DNA from: Minisyncoccota bacterium
Lineage (GTDB): Bacteria > Patescibacteriota > Minisyncoccia > Phycocordibacterales > Phycocordibacteraceae
Direction: 5' to 3'
NCBI GenBank assembly: GCA_041660025.1
Contig: JBAZXD010000001.1
Span: 158,499-222,498, forward strand
DNA length: 64,000 nucleotides
Below the pieces are notes generated by a model that saw nothing but the letters and a program-made list of their open reading frames with translations, was not told the origin of the DNA and searched no databases. Made by a program: the position numbers and the translations under genes. Numbering within the stretch: the first letter of the stretch is position 1; each line of letters opens with the position of its first letter. Below are positions 1,031 through 9,711 of this stretch, piece after piece.

Positions 1031-1076
1031 AGAAATGAAATGATACCATCACATCGTTTCTGCGATTGATCGAGCT

Positions 1077-1149
1077 CCGCCGCCCGCGCCATAAAATGAG
1101 AGCGCTCCGGCCGCTAGGCCAATTCAACTCTCATTTTATGGCGCGGGCG
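1077..1149. repeat. Long inverted repeat: 24-bp stem gccgcccgcgccataaaatgagag ... ctctcattttatggcgcgggcggc
   Basis: The inverted repeat is perfect and read directly from the sequence. It spans the smpB stop codon and the ssrA 5' flank. Confidence 0.5.
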
Positions 1150-1568
1150 GCTTCGCGCAGCGCGTCGCGCTTCTTCAGGTCTTCGCGACGGTCGGCCTTG
1201 CCTTTGCCGCGGACGATGGCGATGCGCGCCTTTATGAACCTTTTGTTATTATACACCTCAAGAGGGATAATTGTCAAGCCTTTCTTGGATTCTGCGGCGG
1301 CGAGCAGGGCTATCTCTTTCTTCGCGAGCAGGAGCCGACGCGCTCGTTCAGGGTCGTAGCCCTTCGGCGTATTCGCCACCTGGTACGGCGGGATGGTCAT
1401 ACCGATGATGAACGCTTCGCCGCCGCGGATCACCACGCGCGCGCCGTCGAGCGAGCCGAGCTTGCTCCGTAGTGCTTTTACCTCGGTGCCAAACAGTTCA
1501 AGGCCCGCCGAGAAGCTCTCTAGCGGGGCGTACTTCAGAAATGCCTTCTTATATTCGACGAGGGCCAT
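1131..1568 (-). CDS. smpB: SsrA-binding protein SmpB
   Basis: The translation (KKAFLKYAPLESFSAGLELFGTEVKALRS...GKGKADRREDLKKRD) has the characteristic SmpB N-terminal and C-terminal signatures. The start was taken at the internal ATG (MALVEYKK) that gives the canonical ~146 aa length. It lies next to ssrA. Confidence 0.85.
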   Translation of the reverse strand: MALVEYKKAFLKYAPLESFSAGLELFGTEVKALRSKLGSLDGARVVIRGGEAFIIGMTIPPYQVANTPKGYDPERARRLLLAKKEIALLAAAESKKGLTIIPLEVYNNKRFIKARIAIVRGKGKADRREDLKKRDALREAARAIK

Positions 1569-1590
1569 ACGAAAGAGTATAGTACCTTTC

Positions 1591-3540
1591 ATGTCTCCCG
1601 CACCAGCGAAGAAACCAAAAGGGAAAAAAGCATCGCCACCTGCGCCCAAGCGTCGCGGTCTGCGTTCGCTCCTCGGCGGTCCTTCCTTCTTCGGCAATCT
1701 CGTGACCACCGTTCTCATTTTCCTCCTCCTTATGAGCGTGTACTCGCTCGTCGAAAGCTTCATTAAGCCGTCGAGCGATGTCCCGCTCTCGGTCGTCGCC
1801 GCCGACGTCGCGGCAGGGAAGATACAGTCGATTACGGTAGAGGGCGACTCGCTCGACCTCGTCTATACCGACGAATCCGTTAAGAGGTCGCGCAAAGATC
1901 CCTCCGCAGGGCTCCCCGAGACGCTCGCGACCTACGGCGTCACGCCCGAAGAACTCGCAAAAGTCTCCATCACGATACAAGGGCAGTCGGGATTCCAATT
2001 CTGGTTCCTCACGCTCGCGCCGGTGCTGATCCCGATACTGTTCATCGCATTTCTCTTCTGGTTCCTCACGCGGCAGGTGAAGGGCGCGGGGATGCAGGCG
2101 TTCAGCTTCGGTCAGTCGAAGGCGCGCGTCATTGATCCCGCCGACTCCTCGCAGCGAGTTACCTTCGCCGATGTCGCGGGCGCGCGCGAGGCGAAGGAAG
2201 AGCTTCTTGAAATCGTTGACTTCCTCAAGAGTCCGAAGAAGTTCCTCGATATCGGTGCCCGCATCCCGAAGGGCATCATCCTGATGGGTGCGCCCGGCAC
2301 CGGTAAGACACTGCTCGCGCGCGCAGTGGCCGGCGAGGCGGGCGTGCCGTTCTTCTCGATCAGCGGTTCCGAGTTCGTCGAGATGTTCGTCGGCGTCGGC
2401 GCTTCCCGGGTGCGCGACCTCTTCCAGCTCGCAAAGAAGGCCGCGCCCGCTATCATCTTCGTCGACGAGATCGATGCGGTCGGCCGCGTGCGCGGCACGG
2501 GGGTAGGCGGCGGCAACGACGAGCGCGAACAAACCCTGAACCAGATACTTGTCGAGATGGATGGCTTCGAACCCACCGAAAAGGTGGTGGTGATGGCGGC
2601 GACGAATCGTCCAGATGTGCTCGACCCCGCATTGCTGCGCCCCGGGCGTTTTGACCGGCGCGTAACTATCGACCTGCCGGACCGCCGCGACCGCGAAGAA
2701 ATCCTCAAGATACACGCACGCAAGAAGCCGCTCGGCCCGGACGTGGCGCTCGAAGTCATCGCCGAGCGCACACCGGGCTTCTCGGGCGCCGAGCTCTATT
2801 CGCTTATGAACGAGGGCGCGATACTCGCCGCGCGCGAGAACCGGACGGAGGTGGCGCAATACGATTTGATACGTTCGATAGAGAAGGTAATGCTCGGTCC
2901 GGAGCGCAAGTCCCACCTGCTCTCGAAGAAGGAAAAAGAGCTCACGGCGTATCACGAGGCCGGCCATGCGCTTGTCTCCTCAGTGCTCGAACACGCCGAC
3001 CCGGTGCACAAGATCTCCATCATCAGCCGTGGGCGCGCGGCCGGCTATACGCTGAAGCTTCCGTTCGAGGATAAGAAGATGCATTCGAAGAAACAATTCC
3101 TCGACGATATCGCCGCGACCCTCGGGGGTTATGTCGCCGAAGAAGAGCTCTTCGACGATGTTACGACGGGACCCTCTAACGATCTGCAGGTCATCACCGC
3201 GATCGCTCGAGAGATGGTCACTCGCTACGGGATGAGCGACGCGATGGGACCCATCGCCTTCGGCGAGCGCCAGCTGGGGAATGAACCGTACTCGGAGCAC
3301 GTGGCGATGCAGATAGATGCAGAAGTCGCCCGCATCATCGACGAAGCGAAGGTGCGCGCGAAGAAGGTCATCACGGAACACCGTGGCGCGCTCGACGCTA
3401 TCGCGAAGGAACTCACCGAGAAGGAGACGGTCGAACGTGGCGAGTTCGAAAAGATATTGCTGGCTAACGGCATCACGCCGAAGAAGCGGGAAGAGGAGGG
3501 CATCACCATCGCGCCTCTCGGTTCGGGTGACGTCGCATAA
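1591..3540 (+). CDS. ftsH: ATP-dependent zinc metalloprotease FtsH
   Basis: It has an N-terminal TM segment, the Walker A motif GAPGTGKT, the AAA second region of homology, and the zinc motif HEAGHA. Length is consistent with FtsH. The start was chosen at MSPAPAKK to avoid an antisense overlap with smpB. Confidence 0.9.
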
Positions 3541-3568
3541 ACTTCCGATTGTTGTACTATAAAAGGGC

Positions 3569-3642
3569 GCGCCCTTAGCTCAATTGGTTAGAGCACCGAG
3601 CTTATACCTCGGCGGTTCTTGGTTCGAGTCCAAGAGGGCGCA
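3569..3642 (+). tRNA. tRNA-Ile with anticodon UAU (reads AUA)
   Basis: A cloverleaf was derived by hand: acceptor GCGCCCU/AGGGCGC, T-loop TTCGAGT, and anticodon loop CUUAUAC. No CCA is encoded. Confidence 0.7.
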
Positions 3643-3644
3643 CT

Positions 3645-4370
3645 ATGAGAAGCTCAGGAGATAATAAACTATATATAGACGGGGCATTAATTGTTGCGAT
3701 TCTCTCACTCCTATTTAGTTTCTACACCCACACGAAACTCACAGTTTTAAATAAGGCTGAAGTAGTGATTTCCCCGTCAGAGATACAAATCGAGACCTTT
3801 AAAACTAAGAGCGCAGATATTGCCGCTGATAATATTGTTCCTTCTTTAACAAACATCGGTAAAGCCACTGCCGATAATATTCGTCTCGAATTTTTCGGAT
3901 GCTATAGAGATTTTTATATAAAAAATCGACACTGTCTAAAATATTGGGATACCCAATATATAAGCGAATTGCCACCCGGAGCTACAAGCCAGTTTGGAGC
4001 CACATTAATTAATTACCCAATTCCAACTGCAGACATAGGATCAGAGCAGTTCTTGCTCCTTTTCCATGTACAGTATTTAGATACCCTTACGAACTCCCAA
4101 AAGGAAGGTTTCTATTTCTTTCACTACCTACTTGGTGTCCCGACTACGCAACAAGGTAAGTCTGCTGTTGGATATCTAGTCTCAGACGATCTTGGGCAAA
4201 TCTGTCCAGGAATTGTATTTGAGCTCACACAAGAGAATGCTTCGCTCTCTCTAATCAATAAGGCACGAGAATATTGCGTCGATGTTGGGAATCCGATTTC
4301 GAATAAAGATTGGGCATATAGCAATCCATATACATACGTTGTTCCTGAGTGGTTTAAATACCTGCGTTAA
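3645..4370 (+). CDS. Hypothetical N-terminally membrane-anchored protein encoded in an AT-rich segment
   Basis: A 241-aa ORF lies in markedly AT-rich DNA. It starts 3 nt after the tRNA and ends 1 nt before the recG stop. It has an N-terminal TM helix followed by a polar domain. Confidence 0.6.
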   Translation: MRSSGDNKLYIDGALIVAILSLLFSFYTHTKLTVLNKAEVVISPSEIQIETFKTKSADIAADNIVPSLTNIGKATADNIRLEFFGCYRDFYIKNRHCLKYWDTQYISELPPGATSQFGATLINYPIPTADIGSEQFLLLFHVQYLDTLTNSQKEGFYFFHYLLGVPTTQQGKSAVGYLVSDDLGQICPGIVFELTQENASLSLINKAREYCVDVGNPISNKDWAYSNPYTYVVPEWFKYLR

Positions 4371-6533
4371 TTACTCCAAATGCATCTCCCGGTCGGCGGC
4401 GGAGGCGCGTTCGGCGAGGACGGGATGCTGTTTCAATTCCGGATCCATGGCGATGAGCTTGGACGCTTCGGCGCGGGCGGCCTCGACGAGCTTGAGATTC
4501 TTCAGCGCTTCCATCGCGATGTCGGAGACGCCCCACTGCTTGCCGCCCGCGAGCTCGCCCGCGCCCCGGAGCGCGAGGTCGTATTCGGCGAGCTCGAAGC
4601 CGTTTTTCGCTGTCATGAACGCCTTCATACGTTCTTTTGTCGCCGGACCGAATGATTCGGGAAGCGCGAAACAGTACGACTGATGCGTCGAGCGGATGAC
4701 GCGCCCGCGAAGTTGGTGGAGCTGGGCGAGTCCGAATCGTTCGGCGCCCTCGATAAGGATGACGGTCGCGTTCGGGACGTTCACGCCCACCTCCACGACC
4801 GATGTCGCGACGAGGATGTTCGTAGTGCCGTCTTCAAATCTTTTCATCGTCTTTTCTTTGTCCGCGGGCGTCATTTTACTGTGGAGGATTTCTATCAGTG
4901 CGTCCGGAAATACTTCTTTCGAGAGACGCGCCGCCTCCGCTTTGACCGACCTCGCCTGGAGTGCGAGCTCCTTTGCCGGATCGGGCTCGTCGATGCGCGG
5001 GCAGATGACATATGCCTGGTGGCCGAGAGCGAGCTCCTCCCGTACGCGTGCATAGGCGCGTTCGCGCTCCTTTGGCCCGAGCACATCGGTCAGCACCGAC
5101 TTTCTGCCGGCCGGCATCTCGTCGAGGAGCGTGAGGTCGAGGTCGCCGTAGAGCGTGAGCGCGAGCGTGCGCGGAATGGGCGTCGCCGTCATCGAGAGCA
5201 GGTGTGGCGCAACATCTCCCTTCGTCGCGAGCTTCTGCCGGTGCATCGTGCCGAAGCGGTGCTGTTCGTCGATGATGGCGTAGGCGAAATATTTGAACGA
5301 GAGCGATTTCTCGATGAGTGCGTGCGTGCCGATGACGATAGGTATCTCGCCGTTCGAAACCATTTTCCGAAACGCCGCCTTCGAGAGCTTGGCGGACTCT
5401 TCGTACCGCACTTTTGACGGGAACTTACGACACTCGCTCCCGGTGATGAGACCGATGGGAATAGGATGGTCCTTGAAGTAGGAGACGAAGGTGGAGAAAT
5501 GCTGCTTCGCGAGAATCTCAGTGGGGCAGAGATACGCGACCTGGAGTGTGCCAGCGATGCGTCCGGCAGGGAGCGAGGTCGCGACTAAGTACGCGGTCGC
5601 CGCGGCGACCGCGGTCTTTCCGCTCCCCACGTCGCCCTCAAGGAGCCGGAGCATCGGATGCGTTTTTTCAAAATCGCCCACGATTGCATCGATGGCGTGC
5701 AACTGTGCTTTTGTCGCGGGGAAGGGGAAGGAGGCGACGAAATCCGCGAGCTTCGCGCGGTCAGCCGCGACCGGTAGCGCCACCTCCTCTTTGAGCGTGC
5801 GCCGCCGCCGTTGCATCACGATCTGGAGCGCAAAGACCTCTTCAAAGGCGAAGCGCTTGCGCGCCGCCGCCGCATCGGACATTTTCTGCGGCGCATGGAT
5901 GAAAACGAGAGAGGAAGAGAGAGATGGCAGATTGTATCGCGCGAGAATCTCCGAAGGAATAGGGTCTGCAATATGCTCGTGAATATTCGTTTCAAATACT
6001 TTCCGGATAGCGTGCATAAGCCAGAGCGAAGAGATGCCCTGGCTTTCCGGGTAGATCGGATAGAGTTCCGACTGCGGCGCGGTGCTCTGTGCGAAGAGCG
6101 AATTATGTATGTCTTCGGGGGCGACGGGCGACTTATCAATAGCAGGATTCGCGAGATATATTTTTGCTCCTGCTCCAGCCACCTTCCCTCTGACTTTCAC
6201 GACCATGCCGTCATGAAGCGTTTTCGCGATGTAAGGCTGGGAAAACCACATCATCTTTATTTTTCCAGACGCGTCTTCGAGCCACGCCTCCGCGACGGGG
6301 CGACGGCTCTTCCAGGTCTTCCGGATGTCCGGCTTGCGCACCGTGCCGTAGAGCGTCACTTCGGCACCGGCCGCGACGCCGGCGATCGTCCCCACGTCCC
6401 CGCTCGACTCATAGCGGGCGGGGAAGTGATACAAGAGGTCGCGGATGGTCCGTATCCCGAGCTTCGTGAGCGCGCGCTTCTGCTCCGGCTTCAACCGTGT
6501 AAATATGGTTTCAACAGTATTTGACAACTCCAT
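4371..6533 (-). CDS. recG: ATP-dependent DNA helicase RecG
   Basis: The N-terminal wedge-domain region (RDLLYHFPARYE) is followed by helicase motifs DVGSGKT and DEQHRFG and then the C-terminal helicase domain. Confidence 0.9.
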   Translation of the reverse strand: MELSNTVETIFTRLKPEQKRALTKLGIRTIRDLLYHFPARYESSGDVGTIAGVAAGAEVTLYGTVRKPDIRKTWKSRRPVAEAWLEDASGKIKMMWFSQPYIAKTLHDGMVVKVRGKVAGAGAKIYLANPAIDKSPVAPEDIHNSLFAQSTAPQSELYPIYPESQGISSLWLMHAIRKVFETNIHEHIADPIPSEILARYNLPSLSSSLVFIHAPQKMSDAAAARKRFAFEEVFALQIVMQRRRRTLKEEVALPVAADRAKLADFVASFPFPATKAQLHAIDAIVGDFEKTHPMLRLLEGDVGSGKTAVAAATAYLVATSLPAGRIAGTLQVAYLCPTEILAKQHFSTFVSYFKDHPIPIGLITGSECRKFPSKVRYEESAKLSKAAFRKMVSNGEIPIVIGTHALIEKSLSFKYFAYAIIDEQHRFGTMHRQKLATKGDVAPHLLSMTATPIPRTLALTLYGDLDLTLLDEMPAGRKSVLTDVLGPKERERAYARVREELALGHQAYVICPRIDEPDPAKELALQARSVKAEAARLSKEVFPDALIEILHSKMTPADKEKTMKRFEDGTTNILVATSVVEVGVNVPNATVILIEGAERFGLAQLHQLRGRVIRSTHQSYCFALPESFGPATKERMKAFMTAKNGFELAEYDLALRGAGELAGGKQWGVSDIAMEALKNLKLVEAARAEASKLIAMDPELKQHPVLAERASAADREMHLE

Positions 6534-6748
6534 AATTTATGTATATATTGTATTGCAGAAGGTTCGTTGCAAAATCAGATTCACTATACCGCATGAGGCG
6601 AACTCTTTACGGCTTATCTTTTACAATTGACTTCCGCAAGGTCGTCTAACTAGGCCGTAAAAAGTTCGTCTTATGGGACGGTACCGTACCGCACGATTGC
6701 GGGTTCTGCGCCCTCACTCCGAAAGGAGTCAACGGCAAGGAGATAACC

Positions 6749-6979
6749 ATGGAATGGCAAGATATGTCCGCAGGGACAAAAGAGGCGGCAGAACAAAATC
6801 TCTGGGTAGCTCTCGGAAGAGATGCTGGCGGAGTCGCACTTCGAATCAACTCGGACCCCGAGTATCTCAAACAGTTGGCAAAATTTGCCGCGAATCCGTG
6901 GCCTGCCGACAAGGGCACAACTACTGCGAAAGTTGCCAATAGGACATGGGCCTCTGGTCTGCCCAAAAACGAATCTTGA
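6749..6979 (+). CDS. Small hypothetical protein (76 aa)
   Basis: A strong SD (AAGGAG) sits 7 nt upstream of the ATG. The gene lies in a region of locally lower GC. Confidence 0.45.
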   Translation: MEWQDMSAGTKEAAEQNLWVALGRDAGGVALRINSDPEYLKQLAKFAANPWPADKGTTTAKVANRTWASGLPKNES

Positions 6980-7007
6980 TTTAGAATTCATGGAAAAGGA
7001 GAAACAC

Positions 7008-7298
7008 ATGAGTATAGGAAAATGTGATGAGCTCGAGCCGTTGTCGGACAAAGCGATCGACAAGATTCTCGGGGGGAAAAACGCCGAGTCAAGATTGCTC
7101 GGCGCTGCACTCAAGAAAGCAACGCCTGCGCAAAAAGCAAAAGCGCTGGCATTCCTGGACAAGGCTGGTGAGGAATGGATAATGGCGGCACAAGAGTCAT
7201 CGATTGTGTCCTGTGCGAGAGAGAATTTTCTCCGCGAGAATTACGATCATCCCGCCATCGCACGTTACCTGGGGAGACACGCGACCGAGATTTTCTAG
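7008..7298 (+). CDS. Small hypothetical protein (97 aa)
   Basis: AAGGAG sits 7 nt upstream of the internal ATG (MSIGKCDE...). The GC content is locally lower. Confidence 0.45.
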   Translation: MSIGKCDELEPLSDKAIDKILGGKNAESRLLGAALKKATPAQKAKALAFLDKAGEEWIMAAQESSIVSCARENFLRENYDHPAIARYLGRHATEIF

Positions 7299-7317
7299 CG
7301 GTCTTAAACTGAGCTCT

Positions 7318-7372
7318 GCGCATCTACTTCATCCTTCGGGATGGGAGAAATGCGCGGGGCTTTTTGTTTTTG
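7318..7372 (+). terminator. Rho-independent terminator after the small-ORF pair
   Basis: An imperfect GC hairpin (gcgcatct...agaaatgcgc, with inner catcc-ttcg-ggatg) is followed by ggggCTTTTTGTTTTTG. Confidence 0.45.
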
Positions 7373-7392
7373 TCTATACCTTACTTAGTTGC

Positions 7393-9082: not shown

Positions 9083-9147
9083 ACAGATTGCGTATTGATT
9101 ACATATAATGTGCTTGAATCCTAGCATACGCGGTATATACTTCGTCT

Positions 9148-9711
9148 ATGTCTACTACAACCACCATTGTGCTTATCGTCGTCGCGATCGTCGTGCTTTG
9201 GGCGATATTCGCCTATAACCGGCTTATTACACTCGTGAATCAGGCGAAGGAGGCCTGGGCCGATATCGCGGTACAGCTCAAGCGTCGCTACGACCTCATC
9301 CCGAATCTCGTCGAAACCGTGAAGGGCTACGCCGCGCACGAATCGAGCGCCTTCGAGAACGTGACCCGGGCGCGCACCGCCGCGATGGGCGCGTCAGCTC
9401 CCGCCGATAAGGCGCAGGCGGAGAATCAGCTTACGGGCGCACTCAAGACCCTCTTTGCCGTCTCCGAAGCATATCCAGACCTGAAGGCAAATCAGAACTT
9501 CCTCCAGCTCCAGAGGGAGCTCGGCGATACCGAAGACAAGATCCAGGCCGCCCGTCGTTTCTACAACACGACCGTGATGACGCTCAACACGGCGGAACAA
9601 TCGTTCCCCGGGAACCTCATCGCGAATTCATTCGGCTTCTCTCCGATGGACCTCTTCGAGCTCGCCGCTGCCGATGCAGCCGCGGCCGAACCGGTGAAAG
9701 TGCGATTCTAA
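9148..9711 (+). CDS. lemA: LemA family protein
   Basis: The protein has an N-terminal TM segment and a LemA-type body (NRLITLVNQAKEAWADIAVQLKRRYDLIPNLVETVKGYA...QAARRFYN). Confidence 0.8.
   Translation: MSTTTTIVLIVVAIVVLWAIFAYNRLITLVNQAKEAWADIAVQLKRRYDLIPNLVETVKGYAAHESSAFENVTRARTAAMGASAPADKAQAENQLTGALKTLFAVSEAYPDLKANQNFLQLQRELGDTEDKIQAARRFYNTTVMTLNTAEQSFPGNLIANSFGFSPMDLFELAAADAAAAEPVKVRF

What the first reader, a model, noticed from the sequence alone, without database searches (positions are those of the whole stretch)
3643..4371. AT-rich single-gene insertion exactly between the tRNA-Ile 3' end and the recG stop
The 726-nt ORF 3645-4370 sits in DNA that is strikingly AT-rich compared with the ~60% GC surroundings. 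It starts 3 nt after a tRNA gene and ends 1 nt before the convergent recG stop codon. A tRNA-flanked composition island is a classic signature of horizontally acquired DNA, although there is no integrase and no direct repeat of the tRNA 3' end here. The protein has an N-terminal TM anchor, an extracytoplasmic domain, and no recognisable motif.
Basis: seen in the sequence. Interest (0 to 1): 0.5.

Follow-up and report, generated by a model that had tools for sequence, protein, structure and literature searches.

The report
Foreign membrane-protein gene beside a tRNA
A single AT-rich gene for a small membrane-anchored, immunoglobulin-like protein was recently acquired by a Paceibacterota (CPR) bacterium, exactly between a tRNA-Ile gene and the end of recG; related genomes swap genes at this spot constantly, so it is a clear but fairly ordinary case of horizontal gene transfer.

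Summary
ORF 3645-4370 has 39.5% GC against 59% for the window (z -5.4) and GC3 of 0.35 against 0.72. It fills the whole space between tRNA-Ile(UAU) and the recG stop codon.

It is an insertion. In at least 12 related genomes and about 10 metagenome contigs, the tRNA 3' end lies -1 to 34 nt from the recG stop. None of 146 related loci carries this gene.

The ftsH / tRNA-Ile / recG interval is a gene-turnover hotspot. It spans 78-5713 nt, its cargo is mostly unique to each genome, and the tRNA itself is found in both orientations. The insert has no integrase and no tRNA-derived repeat.

The protein is not an orphan. A full HMMER search found 47 distant relatives (best 40% identity), and the named ones come from Parcubacteria-group and Sungbacteria genomes. 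No Pfam family matches. AlphaFold (pLDDT 88) gives one TM helix, an Ig-like beta-sandwich and a helical hairpin.

Family members sit in a different context in each genome. They are more AT-rich than their surroundings in 10 of 11 cases. Two lie next to HNH-type nuclease genes and one lies inside a Type III R-M operon.

Both the way the gene got in and what it does are inferred, not shown.

The parts
1393..3540 (+). ftsH, the conserved left flank (ORF as listed; the true start is probably further downstream)
   Evidence: ORF list (AAA and M41 protease motifs visible in the translation). tblastn finds it beside the tRNA in 68 related loci at 74-92% identity. GC3 is 0.76.
3549..3563 (+). Conserved -10-like box (TTGTTGTACTATAAA) 5-8 nt upstream of the tRNA; inferred promoter for the tRNA and for read-through into the ORF
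   Evidence: Closely similar boxes (GTTGTAGTATAAA, GTTGTAATATAAA) precede the tRNA in many related loci that share this orientation. The simple sigma-70 scan did not report it because there is no -35 match. Function is inferred.
3569..3643 (+). tRNA-Ile, anticodon UAU; no encoded CCA
   Evidence: ARAGORN; Rfam RF00005 at 71.7 bits, 3569-3642. The allele is 100% identical to the tRNA of L068, which lies in the opposite orientation.
3634..3637 (+). GAGG inside the tRNA T-stem/acceptor 3' strand, 7 nt before the ATG; the only possible Shine-Dalgarno-like element
   Evidence: Read from the sequence. There is no room for a leader outside the tRNA. Function is speculative.
3644..4370 (.). Inserted AT-rich segment (727 nt), absent from all related loci examined
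   Evidence: Empty sites; GC boundaries.
3645..4370 (+). Inserted gene, 241 aa, a member of an uncharacterised single-pass membrane protein family
   Evidence: ORF. 47 homologues, best E = 1e-40 at 40% identity. The family's invariant or near-invariant residues N70, G72, A76, G118, Y144 and D146 are all present. AlphaFold pLDDT 87.8.
3666..3749 (+). Codons for the transmembrane helix (residues 8-35)
   Evidence: AlphaFold secondary structure; hydrophobic stretch GALIVAILSLLFSFY.
3762..4130 (+). Codons for the Ig-like beta-sandwich (residues 40-162), with the N-x-G-x-x-x-A motif at residues 70-76
4182..4286 (+). Codons for the C-terminal helical hairpin (residues 180-214), with the Cys187/Cys211 pair
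4287..4367 (+). Lineage-specific C-terminal tail (residues 215-241), modelled with low confidence, running up to the junction
   Evidence: pLDDT 54-68. Close homologues have no counterpart to it.
4371..6533 (-). recG, the conserved right flank, convergent with the insert
   Evidence: ORF. 80 related loci match at 71-85% best-segment identity. GC3 is 0.74. The terminal TTAYTCCAAATGCATCTC is conserved at the DNA level in most of these loci.

Best explanation
Window 3644-4370 is a recently acquired single-gene islet. It has not yet drifted toward the host's base composition.

The gene encodes a 241-aa single-pass membrane protein: an N-terminal TM anchor, an Ig-like beta-sandwich and a helical hairpin. 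It belongs to a small uncharacterised family whose named members come from Patescibacteria (CPR) genomes. The family's gene behaves as a mobile accessory gene. It occupies a different chromosomal context in almost every genome and is nearly always more AT-rich than its host.

In this genome it landed in the 1-3 nt spacer between the 3' end of tRNA-Ile(UAU) and the recG stop codon. That junction is a gene-turnover hotspot across the Kaiserbacteria/Paceibacterota relatives.

Shown: the insertion, the hotspot, the family, the fold, and the absence of an integrase and of att-type repeats.

Inferred:
(a) The DNA entered by recombination rather than by an integrase. The likely anchor is the conserved tRNA, with microhomology at the recG end (homology-facilitated illegitimate recombination after DNA uptake). 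A nuclease-made break may have helped.
(b) The promoterless ORF is transcribed by read-through from the tRNA's own -10-like promoter. It is then translated either from a GAGG inside the tRNA on unprocessed RNA, or as a nearly leaderless mRNA once the tRNA 3' end is processed.
(c) The protein displays a binding module on the outer face of the membrane, for cell-cell or phage-related interactions. It has no catalytic signature.
For: Composition: 39.5% against 59% GC, z -5.4. GC3 is 0.35 against 0.72, and the ORF has the worst codon-usage fit of 38 ORFs.

Empty sites: L001, L006, L008, L009, L016, L041, L045, L053, L054, L057, L058 and L070 have the tRNA 3' end -1 to 34 nt from the recG stop. So do L104, L105, L112, L123, L128, L134, L138, L141, L151 and L163. 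No relative of the gene is found at any of the 146 loci.

Hotspot: the recG-to-ftsH interval spans 78-5713 nt. 107 candidate ORFs there fall into 87 clusters. Cargo includes a methyltransferase, NUDIX, GrpB, a Y1 transposase and HTH proteins. The tRNA is inverted in 26 of 68 loci, sometimes with an identical allele in both orientations.

No att-type repeat.

A real gene: 47 homologues, best E = 1e-40; the conserved motif residues are retained; the fold is confident, pLDDT 87.8; the cysteines co-occur in pairs, C86/C97 and C187/C211.

Mobility of the family: the gene's GC is below its surroundings in 10 of 11 contexts, z -0.8 to -7.8. Contexts all differ. In Sungbacteria the layout is tRNA-Pro, 5 nt, an HNH_repeat gene, the family gene, then convergent ndk. 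P0009 abuts a convergent Mur ligase stop with 1 nt between them, at GC 0.34 against 0.50.

Expression: a conserved -10-like box lies upstream of the tRNA. There is no other promoter and no terminator. Other cargo genes start 0-9 nt after the tRNA in at least 8 other loci.

Against: - No donor and no near-identical copy of the gene was found anywhere. It is the only member of its 90% identity cluster among 5.8 billion clusters.
- No strain of the same species was available to show the site polymorphic. The closest RecG is about 85% identical.
- The boundaries coincide with the start and stop codons to within 1 nt. Random illegitimate recombination would not be expected to give that, so either later trimming or an unrecognised site-specific process must be assumed.
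- The right-hand homology (18 nt conserved at the recG end) is short for RecA-dependent exchange.
- Expression, topology and function were not tested. Fold searches return only generic Ig-like domains.
- The control junction smpB-ftsH also varies, in a bimodal way, so variability is not unique to the tRNA junction.
Confidence: 0.75

Rival explanations
1. Eroded integrase-type island. A tRNA-targeting integrative element (phage or integrative island) inserted at tRNA-Ile. It then lost its integrase, its other genes and its attR repeat by deletion, leaving one cargo gene.
For: The position at a tRNA 3' end is classic for such elements. Related loci keep fragments of tRNA-Ile next to the intact gene. 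One family member (P0023) is followed by a Phage_integrase gene and a Y1_Tnp gene. Patescibacteria genomes are streamlined and prone to deletion.
Against: No tRNA-derived repeat survives. With 0 nt between the ORF stop and the recG stop, there is no space where an attR could have been. Its removal would have to be exact to the base without damaging recG. No integrase was seen among the candidate cargo ORFs (at least 60 aa) of the 68 catalogued recG/ftsH intervals; only ten of them were scanned against Pfam.
Confidence: 0.1
2. Homing-endonuclease-driven cassette. The family's gene travels as cargo of a free-standing HNH-type homing endonuclease gene. The nuclease cuts intergenic sites, some next to tRNA genes, and the cassette is copied in by break repair. 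In the window the nuclease gene has since been lost or was never co-transferred.
For: An HNH_repeat gene (PF18780, 34.2 bits against a cut-off of 26) overlaps the start of the family gene. It begins 5 nt after tRNA-Pro in Sungbacteria, within an AT-rich two-gene islet. An HNH gene (PF01844, 25.8 bits against 21.4) lies 350 nt upstream of the closest homologue, P0002. Insertions that are gene-precise between conserved genes are typical of free-standing homing endonuclease genes (general knowledge of T4-type phages).
Against: Only 2 of 10 homologue contexts have such a gene. None is present in the window or at any of the 146 related tRNA-Ile loci. No cleavage site or activity is known.
Confidence: 0.1
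3. Ancestral gene kept here and lost everywhere else. Its AT-richness would come from the amino-acid composition or from a constraint special to this gene.
For: Family members are AT-rich in every host. That could reflect an intrinsic property rather than recent transfer.
Against: This would need independent loss in all 146 sampled relatives, many leaving a clean 1-3 nt spacer. Synonymous sites are also AT-rich: GC3 is 0.35 against 0.72. Family members sit in unrelated contexts in other genomes.
Confidence: 0.03
4. Assembly artefact. The contig is a chimera in which reads from a low-GC organism were joined between the tRNA and recG.
For: The source is a metagenome-assembled genome. The protein occurs on a single contig.
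Against: A chimera would not be expected to place an intact full-length ORF between two genes that are neighbours in all relatives, restoring both flanks to the base. Comparable islets occur in independent assemblies for other family members, including identical sequence in four separate assemblies for P0037.
Confidence: 0.02

Closest known systems
HGT hotspots between conserved core genes that lack mobile-element genes (Oliveira et al. 2017, PMC5635113)
   Same: A spot bounded by conserved core genes (ftsH, recG) and containing a tRNA. It shows rapid gene turnover, its cargo is mostly unique to each genome, and the cargo examined includes no integrase. Recombination at the flanks is the proposed route.
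   Different: The scale here is tiny, at one gene or 727 nt. The boundaries match the ORF to the base. The tRNA inside the spot itself flips orientation and is replaced. The organisms are uncultured CPR bacteria whose capacity for transformation is only presumed.
tRNA-targeting integrative islands and prophages, including tycheposons (bioRxiv 10.1101/2020.12.28.424599)
   Same: The location is immediately 3' of a tRNA gene, the composition is atypical, and the cargo is accessory.
   Different: There is no integrase, no att direct repeat of the tRNA 3' end, and only a single gene.
Phage 'morons' and free-standing homing endonuclease cassettes
   Same: A single extra gene of deviant composition sits exactly between two genes that are adjacent in relatives. 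In two other genomes the family's gene is coupled to an HNH-type gene.
   Different: This is a chromosomal context, not a phage one. The gene has no promoter or terminator of its own, which morons usually have. The window contains no nuclease gene.
CARDB / E-set Ig-like domains on membrane-anchored bacterial surface proteins (Pfam PF07705 and relatives)
   Different: No Pfam model reaches its threshold (best CARDB E = 0.021 in one member, CBM49 E = 0.015). The added C-terminal helical hairpin and paired cysteines are specific to this family.

Membership tests
Integrase-mediated tRNA-linked genomic island | Lies at the 3' end of a tRNA gene | tested here: met
   The ATG is 1-2 nt after tRNA-Ile(UAU).
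Integrase-mediated tRNA-linked genomic island | Encodes a tyrosine or serine recombinase | tested here: not met
   The insert holds one ORF. It has no Pfam or NCBIfam match and has a TM plus Ig-like fold.
Integrase-mediated tRNA-linked genomic island | Direct repeat of the tRNA 3' part at the far end (attR) | tested here: not met
   Best local alignment scores of 15-17 are below the shuffled mean of 18.4. There are no bases between the ORF stop and the recG stop.
Integrase-mediated tRNA-linked genomic island | Composition differs from the host's | tested here: met
   GC z = -5.4 and GC3 z = -4.1.
MGE-free HGT hotspot (Oliveira et al. 2017) | The same interval between orthologous core genes holds different accessory genes in related genomes | tested here: met
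   68 loci, interval 78-5713 nt, 87 clusters among 107 ORFs.
MGE-free HGT hotspot (Oliveira et al. 2017) | Raised homologous recombination in the flanking core genes | not tested
   This needs population-level alignments of ftsH and recG. The only hint is that tRNA alleles do not follow the RecG tree.
Integron gene cassette | An attC recombination site 3' of a promoterless ORF | tested here: not met
   The ORF is promoterless, but 0 nt follow its stop and no inverted repeat lies at its end.
Free-standing homing endonuclease cassette | Encodes an HNH, GIY-YIG or LAGLIDADG nuclease | tested here: not met
   None in the window insert. HNH-type genes are present beside 2 of 10 homologues.
CARDB / E-set Ig-like domain (Pfam PF07705) | Sequence match above Pfam's gathering score | tested here: not met
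   Best E = 0.021 in 1 of 45 members. For the window protein only CBM49 hits, at 14.1 bits against a cut-off of 23.4.
CARDB / E-set Ig-like domain (Pfam PF07705) | Ig-like beta-sandwich fold | tested here: met
Known anti-phage defence protein families (PADLOC) | Match to a PADLOC model | tested here: not met
   0 families. There is only guilt by association for homologue P0005, which lies between a Type III mod and res.

The most novel reading that the evidence does not exclude
The insertion may not be a chance recombination product. It could be the output of an unrecognised gene-capture process acting at the 3' end of tRNA-Ile(UAU).

Under this reading, promoterless ORF-exact cassettes are placed 0-9 nt after the tRNA. 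They are transcribed from the tRNA promoter and released as leaderless mRNAs by tRNA 3' processing. This would happen at a locus where the tRNA gene itself behaves as a mobile, self-targeting unit. It flips orientation with identical alleles, and intact copies are found nested between positions 35 and 36 of older tRNA-Ile copies.

The TM/Ig-like family would then be a recurrent cassette of this system, possibly with an exclusion or defence role, as hinted by its HNH and Type III R-M neighbours.
Probability: 0.12. Interest if true: 0.75.

Novelty: new member of a known kind. Interest (0 to 1): 0.4.

Why it matters
It is a clean, base-resolved example of how streamlined CPR/Patescibacteria genomes gain genes without recognisable mobile-element machinery. 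It has empty-site controls in more than 20 relatives.

It defines a previously unnamed family of about 50 clusters. These are small membrane-anchored Ig-like proteins that seem to move repeatedly between Patescibacteria. They are candidates for surface interaction or phage-related functions in organisms that live attached to other cells.

The surrounding tRNA-Ile(UAU) locus is unusually dynamic, with tRNA inversion, nested tRNA copies and cargo genes fused to the tRNA end. It would be a good place to study recombination and tRNA-linked gene expression in these uncultured bacteria.

Tried and rejected
- AlphaFold on the single sequence gave pLDDT 44 and was unusable; it was redone with the 45-sequence alignment.
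- Word-indexed protein searches found only the query itself, and only 5 proteins with the profile. The exhaustive HMMER search was what revealed the family.
- Pfam, NCBIfam, PHROGs and PADLOC gave nothing significant.
- Phage origin: no tblastn hit in 50,697 phage records. There are no close relatives on IMG/VR contigs for P0001, P0002 or P0024. Alignments A1 and A2 were too divergent for a viral scan.
- Same-species strains: a scan of metagenomes with a wobble-degenerate pattern for the recG end found nothing, so polymorphism of the site could not be tested.
- tRNA-derived repeats or terminal inverted repeats at the insert ends: none.
- Integron cassette: rejected, because there is no room for an attC.
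- A link between the AUA-decoding tRNA and AUA-rich cargo: rejected. The ORF has 5 ATA among 19 Ile codons, while ftsH has 11 of 44 and recG 7 of 43.
- Tandem paralogue next to P0012: rejected (hhalign probability 3%).
- Group I intron or another Rfam family in the insert or in the nested-tRNA loci: none.
- No paralogue of the gene elsewhere in the 64-kb window.
Full report
**1. What is in the window**

ARAGORN finds tRNA-Ile with anticodon TAT at 3569-3643 (+). Rfam's tRNA model matches 3569-3642 at 71.7 bits. The ORF list gives ftsH at 1393-3540 (+), a 241-aa ORF at 3645-4370 (+), and recG at 4371-6533 (-).

In the sequence the tRNA ends ...GAGGGCGCAC and is followed by T and then ATG. The ORF's TAA (4368-4370) is followed at once by TTA (4371-4373), which is the recG stop on the other strand.

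- **Overall GC.** The ORF has 39.5% GC against 58.9% for the window. All other 726-nt windows have mean 0.591, sd 0.036 and minimum 0.483, so z = -5.4.
- **Synonymous sites.** The deviation is not just amino-acid composition. GC3 is 0.35, against 0.76 in ftsH, 0.74 in recG and 0.72 +/- 0.09 across 37 other long ORFs (z -4.1). The ORF also fits the window's synonymous codon usage worst of all 38 ORFs (z -3.4).
- **Sharp edges.** 40-nt windows switch from 0.57 to 0.33 at 3641 and from 0.38 to 0.75 at 4381.

**2. It is an insertion**

The organism is a Candidatus Paceibacterota MAG; NCBI labels the protein "hypothetical protein WC814_00995", on a 387-kb contig.

A RecG-based scan of one genome per species returned 80 related loci (Kaiserbacteria, Paceibacterota and Parcubacteria labels). 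Best-segment RecG identity ran from 71 to 85%. Nearly all of these loci keep the order recG, tRNA-Ile(UAU), ftsH.

Twelve of them have the tRNA in the window's orientation with its 3' end only -1 to 34 nt from the recG stop. An example is L041...GGGGGCGGAC aac TTACTCCAAATGCATCTC. The twelve are L001, L006, L008, L009, L016, L041, L045, L053, L054, L057, L058 and L070.

A second scan of metagenome contigs used a pattern for this tRNA allele group. It gave 66 more loci, with about 10 further empty sites (L104, L105, L112, L123, L128, L134, L138, L141, L151, L163).

The window protein has no tblastn match in the 80 genome loci, and none of the 45 aligned family members has one in the 66 metagenome loci.

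**3. The junction is a hotspot**

Across 68 loci where recG, the tRNA and ftsH could all be placed:

- The recG-to-ftsH interval ranges from 78 to 5713 nt (median 761).
- Either side of the tRNA can be occupied.
- Only 12 loci are compact on both sides.
- 107 candidate ORFs in these gaps fall into 87 similarity clusters, so most are singletons.

Recognisable cargo includes:

- an RrnaAD-like methyltransferase, found right after the tRNA in several loci;
- NUDIX, GrpB and an IS200-like Y1 transposase;
- a recurrent ~224-aa protein with an N-terminal HTH_23 domain, found between ftsH and the tRNA in 10 loci.

Many gaps have lower GC than their genome.

As a control, the neighbouring smpB-ftsH junction is much less diverse. 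It is bimodal, 112-195 nt in 30 loci and about 750-2200 nt in 18. Variability is therefore not exclusive to the tRNA junction, but the turnover of content is far higher there.

**4. No classical integration signature**

The insert contains only the ORF. Alignments of the tRNA, its reverse complement and its 3' half against 3644-4700 score 15-17, below the mean of 18.4 (sd 2.2) for shuffled sequence. The repeat finder shows nothing at the boundaries. There is also physically no space for an attR or an attC.

**5. The protein**

Word-indexed searches found only the query itself. The exhaustive HMMER search of 1.84 billion cluster representatives found 47 relatives with E of 1e-3 or better, and 15 with E of 1e-10 or better. 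The best is P0002, with E = 1e-40 and 40% identity over residues 6-208.

The relatives are 190-280 aa long and share one architecture. The alignment (A1, 45 sequences) has N70 and G72 invariant, and A76, G118, Y144 and D146 at 90% or more. Members with named sources are from the Parcubacteria group, Sungbacteria and Paceibacterota.

No Pfam family reaches its threshold in any member. A PDB profile search finds nothing.

With the alignment, AlphaFold gives pLDDT 87.8 and pTM 0.80. The model has helix 8-35, strands between residues 40 and 162, helices 180-196 and 201-214, and a tail modelled with low confidence.

In the closest subfamily the cysteines come in pairs that are present or absent together: C86/C97 in 9 sequences, and C187/C211 in 5. 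This suggests disulfides and an outside-facing domain, but that is an inference.

**6. How the family behaves in other genomes**

Ten homologue contexts were read. All are different:

| Homologue | Neighbours |
|---|---|
| P0002 | LexA-S24/Type II methyltransferase fusion gene upstream, and a small HNH gene |
| P0005 | between Type III mod (PADLOC 4e-184) and res (4e-92) |
| P0007 | between a DegT aminotransferase gene and asd |
| P0019 | after uvrA |
| P0024 | next to a NYN gene |
| P0054 | next to a pterin-4a dehydratase gene |
| P0009, P0023 | next to Mur ligase genes |
| P0023 | also followed by an integrase and a Y1 transposase |
| P0037 (Sungbacteria) | tRNA-Pro, 5 nt, 284-aa HNH_repeat protein, 4-nt overlap, family gene, 30 nt, convergent ndk |

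Counting the window, the gene has lower GC than its surroundings in 10 of 11 contexts (z -0.8 to -7.8). It matches its surroundings only in a host of about 30% GC.

P0009 mirrors the window closely. Its GC is 0.34 against 0.50, and its stop lies 1 nt from a convergent Mur ligase stop.

No relatives were found in phage genomes or on IMG/VR contigs.

The simplest reading is a mobile accessory gene whose reservoir is low-GC Parcubacteria. It sometimes travels with nuclease or R-M genes.

**7. How it most likely works**

*Shown:* a foreign, intact gene sits precisely in a hotspot spacer, without integrase or att signatures.

*Inferred entry route:* recombination rather than site-specific integration. 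The 75-nt tRNA and the DNA-conserved recG terminus (TTAYTCCAAATGCATCTC) offer one good anchor and one microhomology. That is the geometry of homology-facilitated illegitimate recombination. [quoted passage not shown] A break made by a nuclease is an alternative, suggested by the HNH-type neighbours elsewhere.

*Inferred expression:* a conserved -10-like box (TTGTTGTACTATAAA, 3549-3563) precedes the tRNA here and in relatives. No other promoter-like site lies upstream of the ORF, and no terminator-like site lies at its 3' end. The ORF is therefore probably transcribed with the tRNA.

The only Shine-Dalgarno-like element (GAGG, 3634-3637) lies inside the tRNA. After tRNA 3' processing the mRNA would be essentially leaderless. 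Tight fusion of unrelated cargo genes to this tRNA (0-9 nt) recurs in at least 8 other loci: L118, L121, L023, L029, L044, L031, L002 and L047.

*Inferred function:* a membrane-tethered binding module on the cell surface. The occasional nuclease and R-M neighbours leave an exclusion or defence role open.

**8. Comparison with what is known**

The closest concept is an HGT hotspot between core genes that lacks mobile-element genes. Classical tRNA-linked islands share the position and the composition shift, but fail on the integrase and the att repeats. Integron cassettes fail on attC. Homing-endonuclease cassettes fail on the nuclease in this window.

At the fold level the protein resembles CARDB/E-set domains, but it is not a sequence member of any Pfam family.

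I rate the finding as a new member of a known kind (a small horizontally acquired islet at a hotspot) carrying a member of an undescribed protein family.

**9. Score**

Interest is 0.4. The insertion itself would not surprise a specialist. However, it is unusually clean, it defines a new mobile protein family, and it points to a remarkable tRNA locus (see the items noticed in passing).

Noticed in passing
Related loci, e.g. L041(-), L053(-) against L012(+), L030(+), L076(+); window 3569-3643 against L068 8233-8307: The tRNA-Ile(UAU) gene lies between conserved recG and ftsH in either orientation (26 of 68 loci inverted). Identical alleles occur in both orientations, and the window's allele is 100% identical to the oppositely oriented one in L068. 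Orientation is scattered across the RecG tree, so a unit of about 100 nt (the tRNA plus its -10-like box) has flipped many times.
   Followed up: partly
L018 about 9120-9340, L019 about 5310-5540, L011, L124, L071, L068, L049, L007, L025: An intact tRNA-Ile(UAU) gene, with about 27 nt and about 45 nt of flank, sits nested between positions 35 and 36 of the anticodon of another tRNA-Ile(UAU). The outer halves are still perfect in L018 and L019 and decayed in L011, L007 and L025. L071 shows three nested levels. In all, 16 of 139 loci carry leftover tRNA halves. This looks like a self-targeting tRNA replacement cassette or an intron that carries a tRNA. Position 35/36 is also the group I intron site reported for Patescibacteria tRNA-Asn and tRNA-Asp (PMC13011429), but no Rfam intron model matches, and that paper mentions neither tRNA-Ile(UAU) nor nested tRNA genes.
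   Followed up: partly
L118, L121, L023 (0 nt); L029, L044 (6 nt); L031, L002 (8 nt); L047 (9 nt); window 3645: Unrelated cargo genes start 0-9 nt after the tRNA-Ile 3' end and point the same way as the tRNA. This leaves no room for a leader or ribosome-binding site outside the tRNA. It suggests tRNA-mRNA co-transcripts and leaderless translation.
   Followed up: partly
L003, L004, L013, L015, L016, L029, L044, L045, L055, L069, between ftsH and the tRNA: A protein of about 224-255 aa recurs here (MALRKKKSEAIRMRKEGASYSQIK...). It has an N-terminal HTH_23 domain and an unassigned C-terminal part. It is encoded directly upstream of the tRNA and is usually more AT-rich than the genome, so it is a candidate mobility or homing factor for the hotspot.
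   Followed up: partly
L086 4408-9035: Family member P0005 lies between the mod and res genes of a Type III restriction-modification system, with 6-nt and 5-nt spacers, inside an island of 28-37% GC.
   Followed up: partly
L087-L090 5074-6703 (Candidatus Sungbacteria): An AT-rich two-gene islet is laid out much like the window. The order is tRNA-Pro(GGG), 5 nt, a 284-aa Cys-rich HNH_repeat (homing-endonuclease-associated) protein, a 4-nt overlap, the family gene, 30 nt, and convergent ndk. The sequence of the islet region is identical in L087 and L090, and the protein occurs in the same context in four independent assemblies.
   Followed up: partly
L005, L013, L014, L044, L049, L052, L064, directly upstream of the tRNA: A conserved segment of about 70 nt (..TCGTTCGGCG.. 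hairpin ..CCTCACTC) abuts the tRNA 5' end. In L049 it is flanked by a 9-nt duplication of the tRNA start (GGGCATGTA). It may be a miniature insertion element, or a remnant of the ftsH 3' end.
   Followed up: no
window 3569-3643 and all 139 related loci: These bacteria carry a tRNA-Ile with a genomically encoded UAU anticodon at a conserved locus. From my own knowledge, this is uncommon in bacteria, which usually decode AUA with a lysidine-modified CAU tRNA made by TilS. Whether tilS is absent was not checked.
   Followed up: no
window 1075-1155: A near-palindromic stretch between the tmRNA and smpB matches the MITE-derived MIR1120 model on both strands, well below threshold (35.7 and 34.2 bits against 86; E about 3e-4). 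In relatives, the neighbouring smpB-ftsH junction is bimodal in length, at about 150 nt or about 1 kb.
   Followed up: no
window 6534-7388: The 855-nt interval between the recG start and the next long ORF has lower GC (0.47-0.53) than its flanks and contains only weak ORFs. It may be a second variable spot.
   Followed up: no
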